The translations under genes and the position numbers were made by a program. This document shows, piece after piece, positions 1,240-21,589 of a DNA stretch of 32,000 nucleotides (within the stretch, counting starts at the first letter, position 1; every line of letters starts with the position of its first letter). The DNA is from Candidatus Hermodarchaeota archaeon (GTDB taxonomy: Archaea > Asgardarchaeota > Hermodarchaeia > Hermodarchaeales > Hermodarchaeaceae). The DNA lies in assembly GCA_016839805.1 (NCBI GenBank), contig JAEOTO010000032.1:20232-52231 (forward strand), read 5' to 3'. Below the pieces are notes generated by a model. It searched no databases, was not told where the DNA came from, and saw nothing but the letters and a program-made list of their open reading frames with translations.

Positions 1240-1529
1240 GAGACGATTCTGCTCAATATGCGACGGGAATCTCACCCTCACCAGACGGCATCATACTTCC
1301 ATGAGCCCATATAGCTAAAGCCCGCATGAGAAACTTAGAATCCTTTGCCCTATGAACCAGAGCGGGTACATCGTCTCATTAGCAATTTTTGCCCAGGCAG
1401 AAACATGCGGCGCCAAACCAGCCGTCGCTCCAGCGAAGCATACCGTCTGCGGAGTTAAGGCGACAATGTACAAACGCCTTTTTAAGCTTTCGATTAAACA
1501 TTGCAGGTTTCGATTAAACACTTCGTGAG
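1240..1529 (-). ncRNA. Candidate guide-RNA (omega/reRNA) scaffold and right-end region of the TnpB-1 element; boundaries not determined
   Basis: About 300 nt between the TnpB-1 stop (TAG 1530-1532) and the rpoB start. The only ORF is an unconvincing 68-aa GTG ORF. Several local stems are visible on the minus strand (GGCG..CGCC, TCGCT-GGA-GCGA, CCCGC...GCGGG). In IS200/IS605 elements the TnpB guide RNA derives from the 3' end of tnpB plus the right end (established knowledge). The call rests on position only. Confidence 0.3.
1488..1520. repeat. 13-nt direct repeat tttcgattaaaca x2 (1488-1500 and 1508-1520; period 20 nt)
   Basis: Read directly from the sequence: ...gctTTCGATTAAACAttgcaggTTTCGATTAAACActtcg. 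It lies 10-40 nt downstream of the TnpB-1 stop on the minus strand, where it reads GTTTAATCGAAA. Confidence 0.9.
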
Positions 1530-2729
1530 CTACCCCGTCTTTGCAGATGAGGTTTCCTGCTTCATCGTTTCAGCCAGTGCTGACAGCTCCACAGGCTCTT
1601 CCCGAGGCTCCCTCGGTGCCATGACGGACCGAAGTCCTATCATCTTGATATTTTTTGCAGCATTGATGTCCCGATCATGATGAGTTCTACATTCTGTGCA
1701 AACCCATTCACGATCTGCAATTTGAAGCGCGGTATTCTTGAATCCGCAAGTTGAACATAGCTTGCTAGTTGACTCAAAGCGTCCAATCTCGATTAAAGTC
1801 ACGCCATGCATTTCGGCTTTATCTTTCAACATCCGAAGAAAGCTAGACCATGCCGCGTCTGAGATTTGTCTTGCCAGCTTTCTGTTACTCATCATACCTC
1901 GAACATTCAAACTCTCTACTATAATCGCTTGGTTCTCGCGAATTAGTCGTGTAGATAGTTTTTGTTGAAAGTCCATTCGCTGATTGGTAATGCGTTCGTA
2001 GCATTGAGCTAGCCTGTGTCTTGCCTTCTCTCGGTTTTTCGAGCCTTTCTTCTTTTTGCTTAACCTTTGGTGTAGACAGCGTAACCTTTTGAGCGCATGC
2101 TGAATCGGTCTGGGATTTCCGATTTTCTCACCAGTGGATAGTGTAGCATAGGAAGTGAGTCCGACATCAATTCCAACTGAACCCTGTGTGGTGACCAAGC
2201 TCTTCTCAGGAGGTTGTTTCCCATCCTCTACAACGATACAAATGAAGAACTTACCCGTGTTAGTAGAAACGATTATACATTCTTTCGGATTGCCCGTGAA
2301 CCTTCGATGGAAGACGGCCTTTACTTTCCCAATTTTAGGAAGACGCACTCTTCGAGCTTCAAAGTCAACCTTAAAATTAGGGACAACAAAGGACTGACGA
2401 TGAGCTTTTCTCCTCTTGAACTTAGGATATCCAGGGTTCTCACCAAGCTTTACTCGCCGAAAGAAGTGTTGATATGCTAGAACTACCCGCTTAACAGCAT
2501 GTATAAGAGACTGCGAGTAGGCTTCCTTCAGAAAAAGATTGGCTTGTTTCAGACTTGTGAGTAAATAGTTTAATTCGTACCAGCTGAGACATTTACCATC
2601 AGCCTCATAGGCATGTTTCTTCCTTTCGAGAGCCCAATTATAGACGAACCGACAAGCATCGATATTTTTTCGAATTTGTTCACGCTGAACCTTATTCGGG
2701 TATAGGCGATACCGGTAGGTCCGCAGCAT
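1530..2729 (-). CDS. tnpB: TnpB / IS200-IS605 OrfB-family RNA-guided endonuclease (TnpB-1), no adjacent tnpA
   Basis: ORF-track protein. N-terminus MLRTYRYRLYPNKVQ; RuvC motifs GIDVGLTS, IIVESLNV and DRDINAAKNI; zinc finger CSTCG...CTEC. ATG at 2729 (MLRTYRYRLYP) is preferred over GTG at 2744 because it matches the family N-terminus. Confidence 0.9.
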   Translation of the reverse strand: MLRTYRYRLYPNKVQREQIRKNIDACRFVYNWALERKKHAYEADGKCLSWYELNYLLTSLKQANLFLKEAYSQSLIHAVKRVVLAYQHFFRRVKLGENPGYPKFKRRKAHRQSFVVPNFKVDFEARRVRLPKIGKVKAVFHRRFTGNPKECIIVSTNTGKFFICIVVEDGKQPPEKSLVTTQGSVGIDVGLTSYATLSTGEKIGNPRPIQHALKRLRCLHQRLSKKKKGSKNREKARHRLAQCYERITNQRMDFQQKLSTRLIRENQAIIVESLNVRGMMSNRKLARQISDAAWSSFLRMLKDKAEMHGVTLIEIGRFESTSKLCSTCGFKNTALQIADREWVCTECRTHHDRDINAAKNIKMIGLRSVMAPREPREEPVELSALAETMKQETSSAKTG

Positions 2730-4522: not shown

Positions 4523-5209
4523 TTACCGTTGCAGTAGCGTCGCACCTTTGCCCTTACCGACGTAGACGACATCTGCATAAGTGGGGAAGAGACCGTTTTC
4601 GAGAACCCCTGGAATGACGTTCAGACGTTCTTCTAGCCTAGCAGGGTTTGGAATTTGTGGAAATGTTACATCTAGTATGAAGTTTCCATTATCAGTGATT
4701 ATTGGTCCAGCCTTTCGATCAGCTTGACGAAGCCTCGGTGAGCCGCCTAGTTTTTGGATTCGATCCATAGTAAGAGCAAGAGCGTCTGGCAGTATTTCTA
4801 CTGGAACTGGCATCCTGGTGCCCAACTTATCAACGAGTTTGGCACTATCCACGATAATAATTAGTTGTTGGGCTGCTGCGGCTAATATCTTCTCCCGCAG
4901 GAGTGCAGCTCCACCCCCCTTGATAAGTGCAAGTTTCGTGTCAACTTCATCTGCACCATCCACTGCACACACAAGACTTGTAACACGCCCAAGCGGCAGA
5001 GTAGCGATTCCCGCATCATGAAGTCGCAGCTCTGTGGCATAAGAGCTAGGAACGGCCGTAATTGAAATATTTTCAGCCGCGACCTTCTCGACTAGTAATT
5101 CAATAAAAAGTTCAACTGTTGATCCAGTTCCAACGCCTAGACACATTCCATCTGAAACGTGGTTGATTGCCGCTTCTGCAGCCAGACGTTTTTCCTCAGC
5201 AGATGTCAT
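4523..5209 (-). CDS. rpiA: Ribose-5-phosphate isomerase A
   Basis: GVGTGSTV, VPSS, DGADEVD and LIKGGGAALLREKI are the RpiA signature motifs; 228 aa is the typical length. Confidence 0.93.
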   Translation of the reverse strand: MTSAEEKRLAAEAAINHVSDGMCLGVGTGSTVELFIELLVEKVAAENISITAVPSSYATELRLHDAGIATLPLGRVTSLVCAVDGADEVDTKLALIKGGGAALLREKILAAAAQQLIIIVDSAKLVDKLGTRMPVPVEILPDALALTMDRIQKLGGSPRLRQADRKAGPIITDNGNFILDVTFPQIPNPARLEERLNVIPGVLENGLFPTYADVVYVGKGKGATLLQR

Positions 5210-5317
5210 TTTGTATCCATCCTTCTACCAGATACACACGTATATCATTTCAAACACTTGACCCTTAAAAATCCCATATAGAAATCAAGTTACTTAAAGA
5301 AAATAAATAGTGTAAAG

Positions 5318-5327
5318 ATGGAGCCTC
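5318..5327. repeat. 10-nt direct repeat atggagcctc, copy 1 (copy 2 at 6961-6970 is the 3' end of tRNA-Thr(GGU) plus 1 nt)
   Basis: Exact 10/10 match read from the sequence. On the minus strand it reads GAGGCTCCAT, which is the acceptor 3' strand + discriminator + CCA + 1 nt. Confidence 0.9.
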
Positions 5328-5537
5328 GGGCGAGAAAGTTCGTGTCCATGAAGTACACGATTCGTTGGAATAGTGCCGATATCGAGAAAAGGGAAATACA
5401 CTAGCGTTCTTGCTAAGCAAGAAGGCTGAAAAATATCGGTCTTATCCGTTCCATATCAGGGCCCTTTCCGTTGCCCTCACCATCCAGCCATTTATGGTCA
5501 TGGAGGGCGTGTTTGCGTTACCGACAAACATAGCGAG
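5318..5537 (-). ncRNA. Candidate guide-RNA scaffold / right-end region of the TnpB-2 element, ending in a tRNA-3'-end-like fragment
   Basis: No credible ORF. Visible stems on the forward strand: CCGATAT 5376-5382 with ATATCGG 5433-5439, enclosing hairpin cttgctaagcaag 5409-5421, plus hairpin cgtgtccatgaagtacacg 5341-5359. It sits immediately 3' of a TnpB-family gene. The call rests on position and structure only. Confidence 0.3.
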
Positions 5538-6890
5538 TTATTCCATCTTTACTATTTTCTTAATTTGACGTTTACCACGACGTGCTAGTTCAATTGCAGC
5601 GTTTACATCTCTTGGGAGTTTTATGCCACAGGCAGGACACCGAAAAACAGAATGACTAAATCTCGTTAACAGACAAAGACATCCCCGAGGGCAGATGCAA
5701 CTAGAATAAGCTGCATTTACCCAAATGACCGGAATACTATGTAATGCCGCGTTTCTCTGGATGGTTTTCCCCATTTCTCCTCTAGCCCATTTACTAAGTT
5801 GATCCCGTAATTTCGGCTTTGCCCAAGGTGTTCTTCTTCGAGTAGGTTGATAAGTGCTAAGATTTTCAAGAGAAATAATTGGGTGATTAAACTGGGCTGC
5901 GTAGCGTACTATCACGTTAGCAGTTGTGTTAATCCAATGTTTAATTATACGTTGGGTTTTTTTGTCGAGGGCTTGGATCTCTTCAGACTTATTTAGTCTT
6001 GAAGCTTTTTTTCGTTTCCCCCAAAGTTGTCCTAGCTGATGTTTAAGCCGTTTCCCGGATACTACCTTTGCAGGAAGTATTCGTTCGTCATTGGAAATTG
6101 CTACTGCAGCAGCAAGAGAATTAATTCCCAAATCAACACCTATCACTGTTGGATTGGTTAAATTTTCTATTTTGGGAACATTGACTTTAGTTGTCACTGG
6201 AACAGCCAAGTAGACTTTCTCTTCACGGTTAATGAGCCTTGGAGCTCCTATCGAATATCCTTCTTTTCCATTGAGTGCTTGACGGATAAGTTGTTCAGGT
6301 TTGCCACCAATAACAGCTCGTGTTTTAACAACCACCCTGTCAATAGATACATGGATATCTTGAGTGTCTGAGTCAATGAAAATCCGTAGGTTGGTCTGAG
6401 GCCATTGACCACGTTGACTGCCTGGCCAACCTTTGAGGTTATCTGAATATGAAACTATTCGGTTTAGCCCCGGCAAAGGTTCAGGTAAATCAATACATTT
6501 CTTCGAAGTCCATCTAGTCCAACTCTTTAGTATTTCGTAAGTTAGAACGCGTTCCTTTTTCCAATAAGATAACCATTGATAGGCTTCTCGTCCTGCCCGA
6601 TCCAACATACGTGCTGGAAGTTGAGCAAAAGTTGGATGTTTCCGTAATTCGTGATAGATTTCCTTTTCTGTACAGTTTCCCTCCTGTAAAAGGTTAATAA
6701 ATCGTCGGATTGCTCGGGTGTATAATCGTCGTAATCGATAAACTACATTTGTAGTAACTTCAGGTAAACTAAGCCAAACAGTTCGTGTAACGGATTCAAT
6801 CGTTTGGATATGATTTTGAACTCCTTTAAGCGGTCGTTCAGAGGATTCAACTACTTCAGATAATGCCGCGATCTCTATTTGACCCATCAA
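5538..6890 (-). CDS. Divergent TnpB-like RuvC nuclease (TnpB-2, 450 aa), no adjacent tnpA
   Basis: C-terminal half carries GVDLGINS (RuvC-I), PIISLENL (RuvC-II Glu), a Cys-rich finger (SSCICPRGCLC...FRCPACG) and PRDVNAAIELARRG (RuvC-III). The N-terminal ~240 aa are divergent and lack the YRYxLxP start seen in the other two copies. Start is TTG 6890 or ATG 6887. Confidence 0.8.
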   Translation of the reverse strand: MMGQIEIAALSEVVESSERPLKGVQNHIQTIESVTRTVWLSLPEVTTNVVYRLRRLYTRAIRRFINLLQEGNCTEKEIYHELRKHPTFAQLPARMLDRAGREAYQWLSYWKKERVLTYEILKSWTRWTSKKCIDLPEPLPGLNRIVSYSDNLKGWPGSQRGQWPQTNLRIFIDSDTQDIHVSIDRVVVKTRAVIGGKPEQLIRQALNGKEGYSIGAPRLINREEKVYLAVPVTTKVNVPKIENLTNPTVIGVDLGINSLAAAVAISNDERILPAKVVSGKRLKHQLGQLWGKRKKASRLNKSEEIQALDKKTQRIIKHWINTTANVIVRYAAQFNHPIISLENLSTYQPTRRRTPWAKPKLRDQLSKWARGEMGKTIQRNAALHSIPVIWVNAAYSSCICPRGCLCLLTRFSHSVFRCPACGIKLPRDVNAAIELARRGKRQIKKIVKME

Positions 6891-6961
6891 TCCAACCTAA
6901 TACCAAATAACATGAACACGCGTTTATTTCCATTAGAGACTTGGTTATAAATGAAAAATAA

Positions 6962-7038
6962 TGGAGCCTCAGCCGGGATTCGAACCCGGGATCCCCACCT
7001 TACCAAGGTGGTGCGCTACCATGCTATGCCACTGAGGC
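6962..7038 (-). tRNA. tRNA-Thr(GGU), intron-less, CCA encoded
   Basis: Minus-strand read: GCCTCAG TG GCATAGCATGGTAGCGC A CCACC TTGGTAA GGTGG GGATC CCGGG TTCGAAT CCCGG CTGAGGC T CCA, followed by TTATTTTT. Confidence 0.93.
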
Positions 7039-7051
7039 TTGACAAATGATA

Positions 7052-7233
7052 TGGTGCCGAGGGCGGGCGTTCCGCGAACTCCAACGGATTTCGTTTCGAA
7101 CCCGCGACCTCCAGATGTCTCCGGCGCCAGTCATCATAATATTCTGACCCTGGGGCAAAGCCCTATGAGTATCGCCCTAATATTCCAAGAATGGTTACTA
7201 GTCTGGCGCTCAACCAGGCTAAGCTACCTCGGC
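7052..7233 (-). tRNA. 182-nt multi-intron tRNA, isotype unresolved (possibly CAU): about 79 nt inserted in the anticodon loop and about 26 nt in the T-loop; CCA encoded
   Basis: Minus-strand read: GCCGAGG TA GCTTAGCCTGGTTGAGC G CCAGA [86 nt] TCTGG AGGTC GCGGG TTCGAA[..]CCCGC CCTCGGC A CCA. Acceptor, D, anticodon and T stems all pair. A single-intron solution gives A34 anticodons, which is implausible. A CTCATAG heptamer sits inside the insert. Confidence 0.7.
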
Positions 7234-7349
7234 AGGAGTTATCCTCAATTGGTTCCTTTTAAGCATTATTCTACTTTCTCAACGTATTATCTAAACCCAT
7301 TTCTAATGCAACAGAGAGACGCCCTATGAGTCTGGCCGTTGTCCGAAAC

Positions 7350-8567
7350 CTATCCACTAAGACCTGCAAACTTAGTAGTGTTCGGTTCCTGCATCATCGA
7401 CGGGCACTGACCCGTAATAAGCCTGCAACCTCCCGTCTCAAGACAGGCGTTTTGTGTCTCCGACCAACTGGCGGCGACTAATTCTAAATTAAGACTTGCA
7501 TTCAGGTCACGGTCAATCACTAAACCACAATGTTCGCACGAAAAAAGGCGAGTAGATAAAGCCAGTTTAGATTTAATGTTACCACATTGAGAACATCGCT
7601 TTGAGGACGGAAAAAACCGAGGTGCAAAGATTAACTTGGATCCGTACCATTTCGTTTTATATTCGAGTTGACGACGAATCTCGGAAAAGCTCACATCTGA
7701 AAGAGCTTGGCTCAGAAATTTATTTTTAACCATTCCTTGAACATTTAGATCTTCAACAACGATTTGGCTGTGGTTCTTTGCCAAGTATGTCGTTAATTTG
7801 TGAAGACAGTCTATCCGAATGTTGCTTATACGCCAATGTAACCGACTCAGCCTGATAACGGCTTTTTGACGATTCCTTGACCCTTTTTGTTTACGTGAAA
7901 TCTGGCGAGATATACGCCTTAATTTTCGCATTTTTCTTGGAAGTGGACGTGGATTCTCAAAAACGGTTCCACAAGATAGTGTTGCTAAAGACTTGATTCC
8001 TAAATCAACACCAACTTTCGGACCTTTGATTAGTAATGGTTCTGGTCTCTCTTGTTCAACGGTGAAGCTGATAAACCAGCGATCTGCCTTTCTAGAAATT
8101 GTGGCAGAAAGTATTCGCCCCGAGACATTCGATTTTTCCTTCAGCCTTAATTGACCTAGCCGAGGAAGCTGAACTGATTTTTCAAATAATCTAATTGTAC
8201 CCAGTAGTTTGAAACTATCATGACGTCCCTTCTTTTTGAACTTGGGAAATCCTACCTTCTTACCCTTCTTTCTCCCACGCCAGAAATTGGCAAAGGCTTT
8301 ATGAAGGTCGCGAAGTGCCTCTTGAGGGGCACATTTGGACACTTCATACATCCAAGGATAATGGTATCTTTTTCTTCGATTCAGCTCACGGTGCTGTCGA
8401 AAATAATTCGTAAAACGATCCTTTCCTTTCTCTGAGTTAAAGCGTTTGATTCGTTCTTCCAATCCCCAGTTGTAAACAAATCGAGCGCAACCTGCGTGCT
8501 TCACAAGTAGTGTTCGCTGTCGGTTGTTTGGATCCAATTCGTACCGATATCCACGAAGAACTAGCAC
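7350..8567 (-). CDS. tnpB: TnpB / IS200-IS605 OrfB-family RNA-guided endonuclease (TnpB-3), no adjacent tnpA
   Basis: N-terminus LRGYRYELDPNNRQ; RuvC motifs VGVDLGIKS, IVVEDLNV and DRDLNASLNL; zinc finger CSQCG...CEHCG. GTG start at 8567. Confidence 0.9.
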   Translation of the reverse strand: MLVLRGYRYELDPNNRQRTLLVKHAGCARFVYNWGLEERIKRFNSEKGKDRFTNYFRQHRELNRRKRYHYPWMYEVSKCAPQEALRDLHKAFANFWRGRKKGKKVGFPKFKKKGRHDSFKLLGTIRLFEKSVQLPRLGQLRLKEKSNVSGRILSATISRKADRWFISFTVEQERPEPLLIKGPKVGVDLGIKSLATLSCGTVFENPRPLPRKMRKLRRISRQISRKQKGSRNRQKAVIRLSRLHWRISNIRIDCLHKLTTYLAKNHSQIVVEDLNVQGMVKNKFLSQALSDVSFSEIRRQLEYKTKWYGSKLIFAPRFFPSSKRCSQCGNIKSKLALSTRLFSCEHCGLVIDRDLNASLNLELVAASWSETQNACLETGGCRLITGQCPSMMQEPNTTKFAGLSG

Positions 8568-8646
8568 GTCTTTACTATCCCCAATATCTGTGGAACGCGT
8601 TTACCATCTGCACGCTAATTGCAAGTGTATAGTTTTTTAGAAAAAG

Positions 8647-8798: not shown

Positions 8799-8909
8799 GC
8801 GGGGGTTTCTACAGTATCGTAGACCCCATAGCCAAGCTTGGTCAAAGGCGCAGGACTTAAGATCCTGTCTCGTAGGAGTTCCCGGGTTCGAAGCCCGGCC
8901 CCCGCACCA
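8799..8909 (+). tRNA. tRNA-Leu(UAA), class II, with a ~23-nt intron after position 9 (acceptor/D junction); CCA encoded
   Basis: GCGGGGG TT[TCTACAGTATCGTAGACCCCATA]GCCAAGCTTGGTCAAAGGC G CAGGA CTTAAGA TCCTG TCTCGTAGGAGTT CCCGG GTTCGAAG CCCGG CCCCCGC A CCA. The anticodon loop is CT-TAA-GA and there is a long variable arm. Confidence 0.85.
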
Positions 8910-9033: not shown

Positions 9034-9082
9034 TTTGCACCTAATACGGGGTTATAAACGGAACTCAGAAGGAGGGAATACA

Positions 9083-9814
9083 ATGAAGCAACTTTGGGTG
9101 CTTAGTACCAACAAGCCGTATCAGACCATGATTACACTTGGAGTTGTGCTTGTTATACTTGCTTTAATTAATGGCCTTCTTAGATTGGTTCTTAGTTGGT
9201 TTCTTGGTTGGATAATTCCCCCATTTTTTGAGTTGATTTATTATTGGATAAGCGTGTTTTGGATTGTGTTGGGCGTATATTTTCTGTTCTTTACCGGATT
9301 TTTATATCACGAATCACGGAGAATCCACCGTGATCCCTTTCCTGAAGAGAGTATCTGCTCAAGTCAATCTGAACGGCTCGCATATGATTGGTGCGCGATT
9401 TGCGGACGCCTTGCTTGCCCAGACGAGTTGATACGAATCCAACAATCCTTAACTTCCTCTTATGGTATGTTTAGCTTTGATGGAGTAGCCTGTCACGATT
9501 GTGCACAGCGTCGTGTGAAAAGGTATGCAATTTTATCACCCGCCCTATTTGCCATTTTCTTCCCGTTGGCGCTGATTCCTCTAGTGAGTCTATTGCAAAT
9601 GATGCCACCGAGTTTTAGCATCATCGTTTGGACCGTCTTAGTAGTTATTTTAAGTATTATTGCTATCTTCGGTGTTTGGAATTGGCGACGCCTTTTCCGT
9701 AAAGTGATTACCCCTTTATCTCAACAACCTGATCTGATGATTTCCATTAAAGAACGACTGGCAGAAAAGGGCATGGTGGGCAATAAGGCTGTATTTCGTA
9801 AGATTCCCAAATAA
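9083..9814 (+). CDS. Hypothetical multi-pass membrane protein with a Cys-rich (zinc-ribbon-like) cytoplasmic loop
   Basis: ATG 9083 is preceded by GGAGGG at a 6-nt spacing. Hydrophobic segments flank CAICGRLACPDE...CHDCAQRR. No family recognised. Confidence 0.6.
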   Translation: MKQLWVLSTNKPYQTMITLGVVLVILALINGLLRLVLSWFLGWIIPPFFELIYYWISVFWIVLGVYFLFFTGFLYHESRRIHRDPFPEESICSSQSERLAYDWCAICGRLACPDELIRIQQSLTSSYGMFSFDGVACHDCAQRRVKRYAILSPALFAIFFPLALIPLVSLLQMMPPSFSIIVWTVLVVILSIIAIFGVWNWRRLFRKVITPLSQQPDLMISIKERLAEKGMVGNKAVFRKIPK

Positions 9815-9885
9815 TGAGCCTTCTCTCTCATCTTACTGCATTAGATAAGATTTATCAAGCACCCGCCATTTCCTATACGCGCATC

Positions 9886-10021
9886 GGGCCGGTAGTCTAG
9901 TTATCCGGTTACAATATGTGCTGGACTAGAGCGGTATGATGCGAGAAGATAAAACGGGTTCTGTTTTTCTCGCAAGGTTTGGGACCTCGTGGTCCCGAGT
10001 TCAAATCTCGGCCGGCCCACC
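9886..10021 (+). tRNA. tRNA-Pro(UGG) with two introns (D-loop about 30 nt; anticodon stem position 30/31, 31 nt); CCA encoded
   Basis: GGGCCGG TA GTCTAG[TTATCC..GGACTAGAGC]GGTATGAT G CGAG[AAGATAAAACGGGTTCTGTTTTTCTCGCAAG]G TTTGGGA CCTCG TGGTC CCGAG TTCAAAT CTCGG CCGGCCC A CCA. After intron removal the stem is CGAGG/CCTCG and the loop is UU-UGG-GA. CTTTTT follows. Confidence 0.8.
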
Positions 10022-10077
10022 ACTTTTTCAACGCAGGAGAGTTCGTAACCTTTTTATAGCAGAGATTGGTGATGCTG

Positions 10078-21480: not shown

Positions 21481-21589
21481 GGGCCGATGGTCTAGCTATC
21501 TACTGGGATACTCCCCCGGTGGACTAGAAGGTTATGATATCGCGCTTACACCGCGATGGTCGGGGGTTCGAATCCCTCTCGGCCCACCA
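21481..21589 (+). tRNA. tRNA-Val(UAC) with one D-loop intron of about 33 nt; CCA encoded
   Basis: GGGCCGA TG GTCTAG[CTATCTACTGGGATACTCCCCCGGTGGACTAGAA]GGTTATGAT A TCGCG CTTACAC CGCGA TGGTC GGGGG TTCGAAT CCCTC TCGGCCC A CCA. Confidence 0.85.

What the first reader, a model, noticed from the sequence alone, without database searches (positions are those of the whole stretch)
5318..6970. Divergent 450-aa TnpB-like nuclease locus bracketed by a 10-nt repeat of the tRNA-Thr(GGU) 3' end, with a ~220-nt structured non-coding tail
Seen in sequence:
- ORF 5538-6890 (minus strand) keeps a complete RuvC-type catalytic context (GVDLG, SLENL, RDVNAA) and a Cys-rich finger.
- Its N-terminal ~240 aa are unlike the two canonical TnpBs in this window.
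- No transposase (Y1 TnpA, serine recombinase or integrase) is nearby.
- The gene starts 71-74 nt after the encoded CCA of tRNA-Thr(GGU).
- Downstream of the stop, about 220 nt are ORF-free and contain nested stems: 5376-5382 pairs with 5433-5439 around hairpin 5409-5421, and a further hairpin lies at 5341-5359.
- The tail ends in a fragment resembling a tRNA 3' end (minus strand ..ACGAACTTTCTCGCCCGAGGCTCCAT).
- The last 10 nt of that fragment (GAGGCTCCAT) are identical to the end of the intact tRNA-Thr at 6961-6970.

Inference: the ~1.64-kb segment behaves like an insertion delimited by a tRNA-derived repeat, and the tail is the likely guide (omega) RNA. IS200/IS605 elements normally make no target duplication. 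A tRNA-end repeat would therefore be unusual: it could reflect tRNA-targeted homing, an att-like site, or a decayed tRNA half.
Basis: partly seen in the sequence, partly recalled or inferred. Interest (0 to 1): 0.7.

Follow-up and report, generated by a model that had tools for sequence, protein, structure and literature searches.

The report
RNA-guided nuclease gene targeting a tRNA
A divergent TnpB-type RNA-guided nuclease gene sits inserted at the end of an archaeal tRNA-Thr gene. Its guide RNA appears to carry the displaced original tRNA end, so it probably cuts tRNA copies that lack the insertion; this may also help explain why archaeal tRNA genes collect odd introns.

Summary
Window 5315-6961 (minus strand) is a 1.64-kb insertion between tRNA-Thr(GGU) and rpiA in an Asgard archaeon.

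- **Empty sites.** Related genomes (L037, L040) have the tRNA followed directly by rpiA.
- **Gene.** It encodes an intact TnpB/Cas12f-fold nuclease from a tiny Asgard-only clade, under purifying selection (dN/dS about 0.2).
- **Tail.** It is a conserved, covarying omega-RNA-like scaffold.
- **The "10-nt repeat".** It is really the displaced 3' end of the ancestral tRNA. It matches 14/14 (16/17) to the allele in the empty-site genome L040, and it starts 5 nt after the scaffold end, where a TnpB guide lies. It is the most conserved 30 nt of the locus.
- **Resident tRNA.** It carries mismatches at the 3rd and 5th bases of that 14-nt match. One (the T-stem base) shows a compensating change on the other strand.
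- **Parallels.** Paralogues beside tRNA-Pro, and a canonical TnpB in this window beside a tRNA-Met-like gene, carry 13-15-nt copies of the neighbouring tRNA at the same position. In two cases the match is to the intron-less form and an intron splits it in the resident gene. In the third an intron abuts the match.

Best reading: a transposase-less, RNA-guided homing element whose guide is the naive tRNA allele. Cleavage, TAM and RNA expression are untested.

The parts
6962..7038 (-). Resident tRNA-Thr(GGU), intact. Its T-stem pair 49-65 is C-G and its acceptor pair 6-67 is A-T.
   Evidence: ARAGORN; Rfam tRNA 59.5 bits. All four occupied lineages share the 3' part CCCGGGTTCGAATCCCGGCTGAGGCTCCA. 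The two empty-site alleles read GCGGGTTCGAATCCCGCC(C/T)GAGGCTCCA.
6891..6961 (-). Left end of the insertion. It is a promoter-like leader: a TATA-like TTTATAA at 6945-6951, then the conserved motif AAGTCTCTAATGGAAATAAAC.
   Evidence: The leader motif TTTTCAnTTATA..GTCTCT..AAAnATAAC is shared by subfamilies A, B and E despite about 50% protein identity. It starts 1-5 nt after the tRNA CCA. That it is a promoter is inference.
5538..6887 (-). Gene for a 449-aa TnpB-family nuclease (subfamily A), with intact RuvC D252/E341/D427 and a Cys4 finger.
   Evidence: AlphaFold2 model mean pLDDT 73.7. Foldseek top hits: AsCas12f 8j3r (E 3e-14, TM 0.53, alignment spanning essentially the full length) and ISDra2 TnpB 8h1j (TM 0.42). 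dN/dS 0.18-0.21.
5338..5531 (-). Omega-RNA-like scaffold (194 nt). It runs from hairpin GUUUGUCGGUAACGCAAAC to the final hairpin UCGUGU..ACACGA followed by AC.
   Evidence: Conserved in all subfamilies; nhmmer finds it once in the window and only downstream of family genes. In the RNAalifold structure 90.3% of cells are paired and 14 of 35 pairs have changes on both sides. Between 0 and 1 of 500 shuffles reach the observed values (347/500 for one measure, further pair types).
5333..5337 (-). Linker UUUCU between the scaffold end (..CACGAAC) and the tRNA-derived segment.
   Evidence: The same position reads TTTC/TTTT in subfamilies B and E. Whether it belongs to the scaffold or to the guide is not resolved.
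5318..5332 (-). Displaced 3' end of the ancestral tRNA-Thr(GGU): CGCCCGAGGCUCCA plus U. This is the putative guide.
   Evidence: 14/14 identical to the L040 empty-site allele; only 9-10 nt match the resident alleles. It lies 47 nt from the rpiA promoter motif TTTTTAAGGGTC; the intact tRNA end in L040 is at about the same distance. It is part of the longest invariant block (30 nt, 5315-5344) among four lineages whose dS is 0.5-0.8.
5542..5552 (-). 5' strand of a long-range closing helix (GUAAAGAUGGA). It covers the last codons of the ORF.
   Evidence: An 11-bp perfect inverted repeat with 5312-5322, present in the minimum-free-energy folds. It covaries: window UAAAG/CUUUA against L001 and L004 UUAAG/CUUAA. 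It is non-coding in L004, where the ORF ends earlier. Duplex z = -3.2 to -5.4.
5312..5322 (-). 3' strand of the closing helix (UCCAUCUUUAC). It spans the last 5 nt of the putative guide and 6 nt of tRNA trailer.
   Evidence: Subfamily E has an equivalent helix in the same place with an unrelated sequence (GGCUUGGGGUG/CACCCCAAACC; -26.1 kcal/mol, z = -4.0).
5296..5309 (-). T-rich tract (UAUUUAUUUUCUUU) after the closing helix. It may be an archaeal oligo-T terminator.
   Evidence: Read directly from the sequence. L001 and L004 also have T-runs here. That it terminates transcription is inference.
4523..5209 (-). rpiA, the conserved downstream neighbour. It marks the right flank of the insertion.
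   Evidence: Pfam Rib_5-P_isom_A, E 4e-61. The order rpiA, tRNA-splicing endonuclease, HycI is the same in occupied and empty genomes.

Best explanation
The locus is a transposase-less mobile (or once-mobile) unit built around a TnpB-family RNA-guided DNA nuclease. It sits at the 3' end of the essential tRNA-Thr(GGU) gene.

**Shown**
- The unit is absent from the same site in related genomes.
- A complete, slightly different tRNA lies on its left.
- The original tRNA 3' end (CGCCCGAGGCTCCA), followed by the native trailer and the rpiA promoter, lies on its right.
- That fragment starts 5 nt after the end of a conserved, covarying RNA scaffold transcribed with the gene.
- It is invariant in four lineages that differ at half or more of their synonymous sites.

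**Inferred**
- The scaffold plus the fragment is the omega RNA, and the fragment is its guide.
- The nuclease-RNA complex recognises and cuts naive tRNA-Thr(GGU) genes, like the one in L040, just 3' of the T-loop.
- The break is repaired by recombination with an occupied copy. This copies in the nuclease gene together with the resistant tRNA allele. That is RNA-guided homing, as shown for IS605 TnpB, but at a fixed site like a free-standing homing endonuclease gene.
- The resident tRNA escapes because two changes create mismatches at the 3rd and 5th bases of the 14-nt match. These are position 65 (C to G; its partner at 49 is the complementary base in both alleles) and position 67 (C to T).
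- A long-range helix pairs the 3' end of the guide with the RNA's 5' region and is followed by a T-tract. It probably sets the 3' end, stability or processing of the RNA.
For: **Insertion**
- Empty sites occur in L036-38 and L039-41. The junction alignment A3 shows the relic, trailer and rpiA promoter collinear with the empty sites.

**Nuclease**
- The catalytic triad and zinc finger are invariant.
- The gene meets the TnpB and TNB family cut-offs and has a Cas12f/TnpB fold.
- dN/dS is 0.18-0.21.

**RNA**
- Fold z-scores are -4.6 and -4.5. Fourteen pairs covary, and 0-1 of 500 shuffles reach the observed values on four of five measures.

**Guide**
- The match is 14/14 to the naive allele against 9-10 nt to the resident alleles.
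- The relic lies in the longest invariant block of the locus.
- The same geometry recurs independently three times:
  - Subfamily E has a 15/15 match to the antisense strand of intron-less tRNA-Pro, 4 nt after its scaffold end. The resident tRNA-Pro has an intron splitting that site.
  - Subfamily B has a 13/13 match to tRNA-Pro. A D-loop intron in the resident allele replaces the 5' context TCTAGTTC with ACTAGAGC.
  - The canonical TnpB at 7350-8567 has an element end (..AACGGC) fixed by three independent contexts. In the window it is followed at once by CAGACTCATAGGGC. That is the anticodon arm of the neighbouring tRNA-Met-like gene in the form found intact in L036-38. In the resident gene an insertion of about 31 nt splits it.

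**Patchy distribution**
- By neighbouring genes, occupied L001 is closest to empty L040 (rpiA 85.7%, endA 81.5%, HycI 80.2%).
- Yet L001 carries the same T-arm and acceptor 3' sequence as the other occupied lineages.
- No transposase or integrase was found in the window or called in any fetched locus of this family.
Against: - No RNA, cleavage or TAM data exist. The guide assignment rests on position and conservation alone.
- The 5 nt between scaffold and match (TTTCT) do not match the target (AATCC), so the guide register and the TAM are unknown.
- The Hermodarchaeum genome that carries the element also has another Thr-type tRNA with a 15/15 match to the same segment (L004 1-52, L022 6555-6655). 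Targeting must therefore depend on flanking bases that I cannot define.
- How the complete left-hand tRNA was restored at the first insertion is unexplained. IS200/IS605 elements make no duplication.
- Element divergence (72-81% aa) is as deep as host-gene divergence (67-86%). Long vertical residence with losses cannot be excluded, and only two empty lineages and four occupied lineages were sampled.
- In the canonical TnpB case the tRNA-derived segment is only 14 nt and is not continuous with a tRNA, so a simple insertion does not explain it.
- Subfamilies C and D show no tRNA link in their short contigs.
Confidence: 0.6

Rival explanations
1. Remnant of an integrase-type integrative element. 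A virus or plasmid integrated into the 3' end of tRNA-Thr by site-specific recombination and created attL/attR copies of the tRNA end. It later shrank to a TnpB gene, which was only cargo. The tRNA fragment would be an att scar with no role in RNA guidance.
For: - Direct repeats of a tRNA 3' end around an insertion, with the tRNA kept intact, are the classic signature of archaeal and bacterial integrative elements (established knowledge).
- The B paralogue is flanked by a 62-nt, 75%-identical copy of the tRNA-Pro 5' end plus promoter.
- In Caldiarchaeum a 1.87-kb insertion at tRNA-Thr(GGU), flanked by a tRNA fragment, was attributed to a recombinase-bearing element (PMC3293823).
Against: - No integrase was found in the window or called in any fetched locus of the five subfamilies.
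- In the two subfamilies with mapped ends (A and B) the unit is always about 1.6-1.8 kb and holds only the nuclease gene and its RNA.
- An unused att scar should decay. Instead it is the most conserved 30 nt of the locus, at dS 0.5-0.8.
- It starts 4-5 nt after the RNA scaffold end in A and E, and 0 nt after it in the canonical family.
- Part of it pairs with the RNA's 5' region and covaries.
Confidence: 0.1
2. Domesticated host system. The nuclease and its fixed guide no longer serve their own spread. They work for the cell, for example by destroying incoming DNA that carries a Thr-tRNA-like attachment site, or by binding or regulating the tRNA/rpiA region.
For: - There is a single copy at a syntenic site in four lineages, under purifying selection.
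- The guide is fixed, and the RNA's 5' region has co-evolved to pair with it.
- Domestication of TnpB has a precedent in the TldR repressors (PMC10705468, abstract listed).
Against: - Catalytic residues are intact, unlike TldR.
- The guide matches the allele of genomes that lack the element rather than the host's own tRNA. That is what a homing element needs. It is not what a defence against elements adapted to this host needs.
- Presence is patchy among close relatives.
- A 16-mer scan of IMG/VR gave only chance hits in GC-rich phage coding regions.
Confidence: 0.15
3. Inactive fossil. A TnpB element inserted once, the nuclease RNA no longer guides anything, and the conserved tRNA-like block is kept for another reason, such as terminating transcription before rpiA or stabilising the mRNA.
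For: - The block is part of a strong helix followed by a T-tract, just upstream of the rpiA promoter.
- One B copy (L006) has an in-frame stop.
Against: - The protein is under purifying selection with all catalytic residues kept.
- The 10 guide bases that are not in the helix (CGCCCGAGGC) are also invariant.
- Three other family or neighbour cases place a tRNA-derived 13-15-mer at the same position.
Confidence: 0.1

Closest known systems
IS200/IS605-family TnpB with omega RNA (ISDra2, GstIS605): RNA-guided homing that restores the transposon
   Same: - RuvC-type nuclease with a TNB zinc finger and a Cas12f/TnpB fold.
- A structured RNA starting at the 3' end of the gene.
- A guide taken from the DNA just beyond the element's right end.
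- A predicted role in cutting copies that lack the element, so that recombination copies it back in.
   Different: - There is no TnpA anywhere in the window.
- There is one copy at one fixed site per subfamily, not many copies.
- The N-terminal 200 aa lack the HTH_OrfB_IS605 domain and are found in only about 10 protein clusters.
- The insertion is flanked by a duplicated tRNA end, so an essential gene stays intact.
- The guide is fixed and conserved, and is partly paired with the RNA's own 5' region.
Free-standing homing endonuclease genes (intronless homing), e.g. phage T4 SegB in the tRNA gene region
   Same: - A nuclease gene lies between conserved genes and is present or absent among relatives.
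- The target lies in the neighbouring gene of nuclease-less genomes.
- The resident allele is protected by substitutions.
- Flanking sequence appears to travel with the gene.
- SegB also acts on a tRNA gene cluster (PMC13565253).
   Different: Target recognition here would be by an RNA that carries a copy of the target, not by the protein. The enzyme family is unrelated (RuvC, not GIY-YIG or LAGLIDADG).
tRNA-gene-integrating archaeal elements, and the Caldiarchaeum tRNA-Thr(GGU) insertion (Sugahara et al. 2012, PMC3293823)
   Same: An insertion of about 1.6-1.9 kb at tRNA-Thr(GGU) is flanked by a tRNA fragment, with the functional tRNA kept. In Caldiarchaeum, as at the tRNA-Pro paralogue loci here, the functional copy has an extra intron that the fragment lacks.
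   Different: That element was inferred to carry a recombinase (813-bp ORF) and occurs in several copies. No RNA-guided nuclease or guide was proposed. Here the only gene is a TnpB-family nuclease, and the fragment sits at the guide position.
TldR (TnpB-like nuclease-dead repressors) and Cas12f
   Same: The fold is TnpB-derived. Like TldR, there is a fixed guide encoded next to the gene at a stable chromosomal site. The closest solved structures are Cas12f.
   Different: The catalytic triad is intact, so it is not TldR. There is no CRISPR array and no repeat family in 5150-7350, so it is not Cas12f.

Membership tests
TnpB (RNA-guided endonuclease, OMEGA) | RuvC-like catalytic D-E-D triad | tested here: met
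   D252 (GVDLG), E341 (LENL) and D427 (RDVNAA) are invariant in 11 family members.
TnpB (RNA-guided endonuclease, OMEGA) | Zinc-finger target-nucleic-acid-binding (TNB) domain and family HMM above cut-off | tested here: met
   PF07282 scores 46.3 bits (cut-off 26.3). NCBIfam guided_TnpB scores 111.7 bits (cut-off 100). PF01385 OrfB_IS605 scores 28.9 bits, just under its 30.5 cut-off.
TnpB (RNA-guided endonuclease, OMEGA) | WED/REC N-terminal half with TnpB/Cas12f architecture | tested here: inconclusive
   There is no sequence match for residues 1-200. The AlphaFold2 model (mean pLDDT 73.7) aligns over essentially its full length to AsCas12f (TM 0.53) and to ISDra2 TnpB (TM 0.42). Model confidence is moderate.
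TnpB (RNA-guided endonuclease, OMEGA) | Structured omega RNA encoded at or after the 3' end of the gene | tested here: met
   A conserved 194-nt scaffold has 14 covarying pairs, with 0-1 of 500 shuffles reaching the observed values on four of five measures. Fold z = -4.6. Expression was not tested.
TnpB (RNA-guided endonuclease, OMEGA) | Guide is the target-derived DNA immediately beyond the scaffold or right end | tested here: inconclusive
   The tRNA-derived 14-mer begins 5 nt after the scaffold end and continues into the native flank. The 5-nt linker and the register are unresolved.
TnpB (RNA-guided endonuclease, OMEGA) | TAM-dependent, guide-dependent DNA cleavage | not testable with these tools
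   This needs biochemistry. The candidate 5' contexts are GAATCC (A), TAGTTC (B) and AGGTCC (E).
IS200/IS605 insertion sequence (autonomous or TnpA-mobilised) | Y1 transposase TnpA in the element or nearby | tested here: not met
   No PF01797-type or other transposase or recombinase is found among the ORFs of the 32-kb window.
IS200/IS605 insertion sequence (autonomous or TnpA-mobilised) | Multiple copies in different genomic contexts | tested here: not met
   Subfamily A is always between tRNA-Thr(GGU) and rpiA. B and E are always beside tRNA-Pro. The scaffold is single-copy in the window.
IS200/IS605 insertion sequence (autonomous or TnpA-mobilised) | Insertion without duplication of target sequence | tested here: not met
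   The tRNA 3' end is present on both sides.
Integrase-type tRNA-integrating element | Tyrosine or serine integrase gene within the flanking repeats | tested here: not met
   The only gene between the repeats is the nuclease. The same is true at the other subfamily A loci and at the occupied subfamily B loci.
Free-standing homing endonuclease gene (intronless homing) | Present or absent at the same intergenic site among relatives, with the target intact only in genomes lacking it | tested here: met
   Occupied: window, L001-3, L004/15-17, L018. Empty: L036-38, L039-41. The 14/14 match is to the empty L040 allele only.
Free-standing homing endonuclease gene (intronless homing) | Cleavage-induced gene conversion with co-conversion of flanks | tested here: inconclusive
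   All occupied lineages share the tRNA T-arm and acceptor 3' sequence while their anticodon stems differ. L001 groups with empty L040 by host genes. This is suggestive, but the sample is small.
TldR (nuclease-dead TnpB-like repressor) | Loss of RuvC catalytic residues | tested here: not met
   The triad is intact and invariant.
Cas12f (type V-F CRISPR effector) | Adjacent CRISPR array and adaptation genes | tested here: not met
   There are no CRISPR repeat hits at Rfam gathering scores, no repeat arrays in 5150-7350 and no cas genes among the neighbours.

The most novel reading that the evidence does not exclude
TnpB-family nucleases in these Asgard archaea behave as RNA-guided homing endonucleases aimed at tRNA genes, and they drive an arms race with those genes. 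Each carries, as its guide, a copy of the neighbouring tRNA: its naive form in three of the four cases, and a site abutted by a resident intron in the fourth.

The resident tRNA escapes either by stem substitutions, at least one of them compensated (tRNA-Thr), or by a bulge-helix-bulge-type intron placed within or at the edge of the target (tRNA-Pro, tRNA-Met-like). The resistant, intron-bearing allele would then spread together with the nuclease gene.

This would give a concrete, testable mechanism for the origin and spread of non-canonical tRNA introns in archaea. It would be the RNA-guided counterpart of the Randau-Soll idea that disrupted tRNA genes protect against mobile elements.
Probability: 0.4. 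Interest if true: 0.92.

Novelty: new variant of a known kind. Interest (0 to 1): 0.8.

Why it matters
- **TnpB beyond its transposon.** TnpB is known as a helper of IS200/IS605 and IS607 transposons, which move with a TnpA. Here a TnpB clade appears to have become a stand-alone, site-specific homing element in an essential tRNA gene. It keeps the gene working and uses the displaced gene end as its guide. That broadens what RNA-guided nucleases do in nature. It also offers a compact (449 aa) Asgard enzyme with a defined natural target.
- **Archaeal tRNA introns.** Three further cases, one of them a canonical TnpB in the same window, place a tRNA-derived guide-like segment against a site that an intron splits or abuts in the resident tRNA. 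This makes an old question directly testable, namely why archaeal tRNA genes carry introns at odd positions. One would cut intron-less and intron-bearing alleles with the cognate nuclease-RNA pairs, and survey the right-end flanks of all Asgard TnpB genes against tRNA intron sites.
- **Literature.** I found no paper in the held library that links TnpB guides to tRNA introns.

Tried and rejected
- **Third tRNA gene or split tRNA.** I asked whether the tail end belongs to a third tRNA-Thr gene or a split or permuted tRNA. There is no 5' acceptor strand in the tail and no T-arm, and ARAGORN and Rfam find nothing.
- **Bulge-helix-bulge site.** I asked whether the closing helix is a site for the splicing endonuclease, giving a circular RNA as reported for haloarchaeal omega RNAs (PMC12558985). 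It has a 6-nt one-sided bulge and a 4x2 internal loop, not the 3-4-3 motif. This is not supported, though circularisation is not excluded.
- **Viral targets.** A scan of IMG/VR for CTCGCCCGAGGCTCCA gave 12 hits. All lie in unrelated GC-rich sequence, apparently phage coding regions.
- **Chance repeat.** Rejected: 3 observed against 0.03 expected, plus the synteny evidence.
- **Exact-sequence look-ups.** Looking up the window protein and P0001 in the contig index found nothing. One look-up failed for lack of capacity.
- **Right end of the canonical TnpB.** Comparing the two canonical copies in the window failed because they are only 34% identical. It was solved with L054 and L055 instead.
- **History of the tRNA-Pro (B) locus.** Its downstream region is a fold-back of tRNA-Pro exon 1 and intron sequence that I could not resolve into a simple series of events.
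- **TAM consensus.** I tried to derive one from three target contexts. There are too few cases, and the register is uncertain.


Full report
**Origin and setting**

The window is archaeal. It holds an archaeal SRP RNA and a 5S rRNA. Homologues of its genes come from Asgard archaea labelled Promethearchaeota, Hermodarchaeota, Hodarchaeota and Thorarchaeota.

On the minus strand the local order is:
- a canonical TnpB (7350-8567);
- a multi-intron tRNA-Met-like gene (about 7052-7233);
- tRNA-Thr(GGU) (6962-7038);
- the ORF in question (5538-6887);
- a 220-nt tail;
- rpiA (4523-5209), then tRNA-splicing endonuclease and HycI.

Every other ORF scanned in the 32 kb (all those of at least 111 aa) is either a housekeeping-type gene or has no Pfam match. 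None is a transposase or integrase.

**Check of the observation**

The 10-mer GAGGCTCCAT occurs three times in the window against 0.03 expected. The third copy is the end of tRNA-Thr(UGU), so the motif is the Thr-type acceptor end plus CCA.

**The protein**

- It passes the NCBIfam guided_TnpB and Pfam TNB cut-offs, but only over residues about 200-440.
- D252, E341, D427 and four cysteines are invariant in the family.
- A profile search of PDB sequences finds TnpB, Cas12f and Cas12g, again only for the C-terminal half.
- An AlphaFold2 model (mean pLDDT 73.7) aligns over essentially its full length to AsCas12f (E 3e-14, TM 0.53) and to ISDra2 TnpB (TM 0.42). The N-terminal half is therefore probably a divergent WED/REC module.
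- An exhaustive profile search of 1.84 billion representative proteins finds only 10 clusters at E <= 1e-30. The thousands of ordinary TnpBs match only positions about 200-440. This is a small clade. Every member that carries a source label or an organism title comes from Asgard archaea.
- Between lineages dN/dS is 0.18-0.21 with dS 0.5-0.8, so the protein is under purifying selection.

**The tail is a conserved structured RNA**

- All subfamilies (named A to F here; 44-54% protein identity to A) share a scaffold after the stop codon. It has a first hairpin (GUUyNNGGyAACRNNAAC), several conserved motifs, and a final hairpin followed by (G/A)AAC.
- On a 9-sequence alignment the consensus structure has 35 pairs. 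Of the cells, 90.3% are paired and 14 pairs change on both sides. Between 0 and 1 of 500 shuffles reach the observed values on four of five measures; on the fifth, further pair types, 347 of 500 do. Slid controls drop to 31-48% paired.
- Single-sequence folds have z = -4.6 and -4.5.
- No Rfam family matches.
- nhmmer finds the scaffold once in the window, and elsewhere only behind family genes.

**The locus is an insertion**

I used rpiA homologues to find orthologous regions. Two lineages have tRNA-Thr(GGU) followed by rpiA with nothing in between. They are L036-38 (labelled Hodarchaeota) and L039-41.

In L040 the tRNA ends ..GGGTTCGAATCCCGCCCGAGGCTCCA. About the same distance downstream as in the window comes the rpiA promoter motif TTTTTAAGGGTC. 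In the window the tail ends ..CACGAACTTTCTCGCCCGAGGCTCCA, and the same motif follows 47 nt later.

So the right-hand "repeat" is the original tRNA 3' end, left in place next to its native trailer. A complete tRNA lies to the left of the insertion.

The relic matches the L040 allele 14/14 (16/17 if extended). It matches the resident tRNA alleles for only 9-10 nt. It has C at tRNA position 65, like both empty alleles. All four occupied lineages have G65, paired with C49, and T67, paired with A6 where the 5' strand is available.

**The relic is under selection and sits at the guide position**

Among four occupied lineages the longest invariant block between the end of the ORF and rpiA is the 30 nt CACGAACTTTCTCGCCCGAGGCTCCATCTT (5344-5315). 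Overall, 65% of columns are invariant.

The relic begins 5 nt after the scaffold end. In TnpB systems the guide is the flank immediately after the scaffold (established knowledge; see also PMC12558985). On that basis the guide is most likely this tRNA fragment.

Counted from the start of the 14-nt match, the naive L040 allele matches throughout. The resident allele mismatches at the 3rd and 5th bases.

**Independent parallels**

1. *Subfamily E (L033).* Four nt after its scaffold end comes CCAAACCTCGCATCA. This is 15/15 identical to the antisense strand of the intron-less tRNA-Pro found in L037 and L040. The tRNA-Pro next to E has an intron that splits this site, leaving only 9 nt contiguous.
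2. *Subfamily B (L005, L006, L019-23).* The invariant segment TTTCGGGTATGATGCGAGCAAAC contains 13/13 of tRNA-Pro (sense strand). In the resident allele a 29-nt D-loop intron is inserted exactly at its 5' edge. The context changes from TCTAGTTC to ACTAGAGC.
3. *The canonical TnpB at 7350-8567.* Its family's right end is fixed at ..AACGGC by three different genomic contexts. In the window the next 14 nt are CAGACTCATAGGGC (7334-7321).
   - That is the anticodon arm of the neighbouring tRNA-Met-like gene, in the form found intact in L036-38.
   - In the resident gene an insertion of about 31 nt interrupts it (7200-7170).

For a fixed guide position, a 14-15-nt exact match to about 400 candidate positions in a neighbouring tRNA has a probability of about 1e-6. 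I calculated this figure myself; it is not a tool result.

**Distribution**

Each subfamily is tied to one site. A lies between tRNA-Thr(GGU) and rpiA. B and E lie beside tRNA-Pro.

The window itself lacks B. Its tRNA-Pro region is collinear with the B-occupied loci minus about 1.8 kb. The promoter junction looks like a crossover between the two promoter copies, so this is probably a secondary loss.

By host genes, occupied L001 is closest to empty L040, yet it has the occupied-type tRNA 3' half. This fits spread with co-conversion. The sample is small, and the elements are as diverged as their hosts, so vertical descent with losses is not excluded.

**Closing helix**

The last codons of the ORF (5552-5542) pair with 5322-5312. 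That stretch is the last 5 nt of the putative guide plus 6 nt of trailer. Both minimum-free-energy folds extend this into a helix of about 20 bp, and a T-tract follows.

It covaries within A, and it stays conserved in L004, where it is no longer coding. E has an equivalent helix of unrelated sequence. B, C and D show none.

Its role is unknown; it could set the 3' end, stabilise the RNA or mask the guide. It is not a canonical bulge-helix-bulge motif.

**What remains unexplained**

- How the left-hand tRNA was completed at the first insertion. Either the element carried a replacement 3' end, or the unit arose by recombination.
- The register of the guide and the TAM.
- Why another Thr-type tRNA with a 15/15 match is tolerated in the Hermodarchaeum genome.
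- The fold-back structure downstream of B.
- Why the canonical TnpB's tRNA-derived segment is only 14 nt.

**Comparison with the literature**

TnpB-driven homing is established for IS605 (abstract of PMC10690162; review PMC13565253). Fixed-guide domesticated TnpBs exist in the TldR repressors (PMC10705468, abstract listed).

A 2012 study described a 1.87-kb insertion at tRNA-Thr(GGU) in Caldiarchaeum, with a flanking tRNA fragment and gain of an intron. It proposed a link between mobile elements and tRNA introns (PMC3293823). The Randau-Soll protection hypothesis is summarised in PMC4390854.

I found nothing in the held library that links TnpB guides to tRNA alleles or introns.

**Verdict**

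The locus is best read as a new variant of TnpB biology: a transposase-less, tRNA-targeted, RNA-guided homing unit. The wider implication for tRNA introns is plausible but unproven.

Noticed in passing
window 7321-7352 and 7160-7205 (minus strand): The canonical TnpB (7350-8567) ends its conserved scaffold at ..AACGGC (7340-7335). The next 14 nt, CAGACTCATAGGGC, equal the anticodon arm of the adjacent tRNA-Met-like gene without its extra intron. That form is intact in L036-38. The resident gene has an insertion of about 31 nt splitting the site.
   Followed up: partly
window 9840-10023 (plus strand), compared with L022 3700-5700 and L006 5700-7700: The window is an empty, probably secondarily vacated, site for the B paralogue of this nuclease family, beside tRNA-Pro(UGG). 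The tRNA-Pro keeps two introns. The promoter junction TTAGATAAGATTTAT|CAAGCACCC looks like a crossover between the two promoter copies seen in occupied genomes.
   Followed up: partly
window 7052-7233 (minus strand): A tRNA-like gene with anticodon CAT and several introns (GCCGAGGTAGC..CTCGGCACCA) is missed by ARAGORN and by Rfam at gathering score. Its intron content differs between the window, L004, L037 and L040.
   Followed up: partly
L036-L041, e.g. L037 1312-1959 (minus strand): In genomes with an intron-less tRNA-Pro, the slot between tRNA-Pro and tRNA-Thr(UGU) holds a LAGLIDADG_3 homing-endonuclease-like gene (E 3e-12). In the window the same slot holds an unrelated ORF (9035-9814) with only weak, membrane-protein-like Pfam hits. 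In other lineages the tRNA-Pro side of that interval also holds the B or E TnpB-like gene. This tRNA cluster seems to be a hot spot for homing-type nucleases.
   Followed up: partly
L031 about 1-60 and about 2050-2110 (also L032): The subfamily D element is flanked by an imperfect direct repeat of about 45 nt (CCTAAATTTTTGG..CCCTTCACTTC). A related CTTTCCCTAAATT sits right after its RNA scaffold. This may be the same target-copy logic at a non-tRNA site.
   Followed up: no
L006 about 6225: The B-family gene in the Promethearchaeota MAG DZ2M.271 has an in-frame stop or frameshift. It is either a pseudogene or an assembly error.
   Followed up: no
window 1460-1530 (minus strand): Downstream of the second canonical TnpB (1530-2744) there is a tandem direct repeat of TGTTTAATCGAAA (..GAAGTGTTTAATCGAAACCTGCAATGTTTAATCGAAAGCTT..). 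Its meaning is unknown.
   Followed up: no
window 8829-8898 and 21516-21582 (plus strand): Two weak Rfam tRNA hits (29.1 and 34.7 bits) are not called by ARAGORN. They are probably further intron-containing tRNA genes. The first lies just upstream of tRNA-Thr(UGU).
   Followed up: no
L022 6555-6655; L004 1-52; L006 about 8520-8612: A third tRNA with a Thr-type acceptor stem (GCCTCGG/CCGAGGC) and an intron is not called by ARAGORN. Its 3' end matches the putative guide 15/15, but with a T-loop spacing one base longer.
   Followed up: partly
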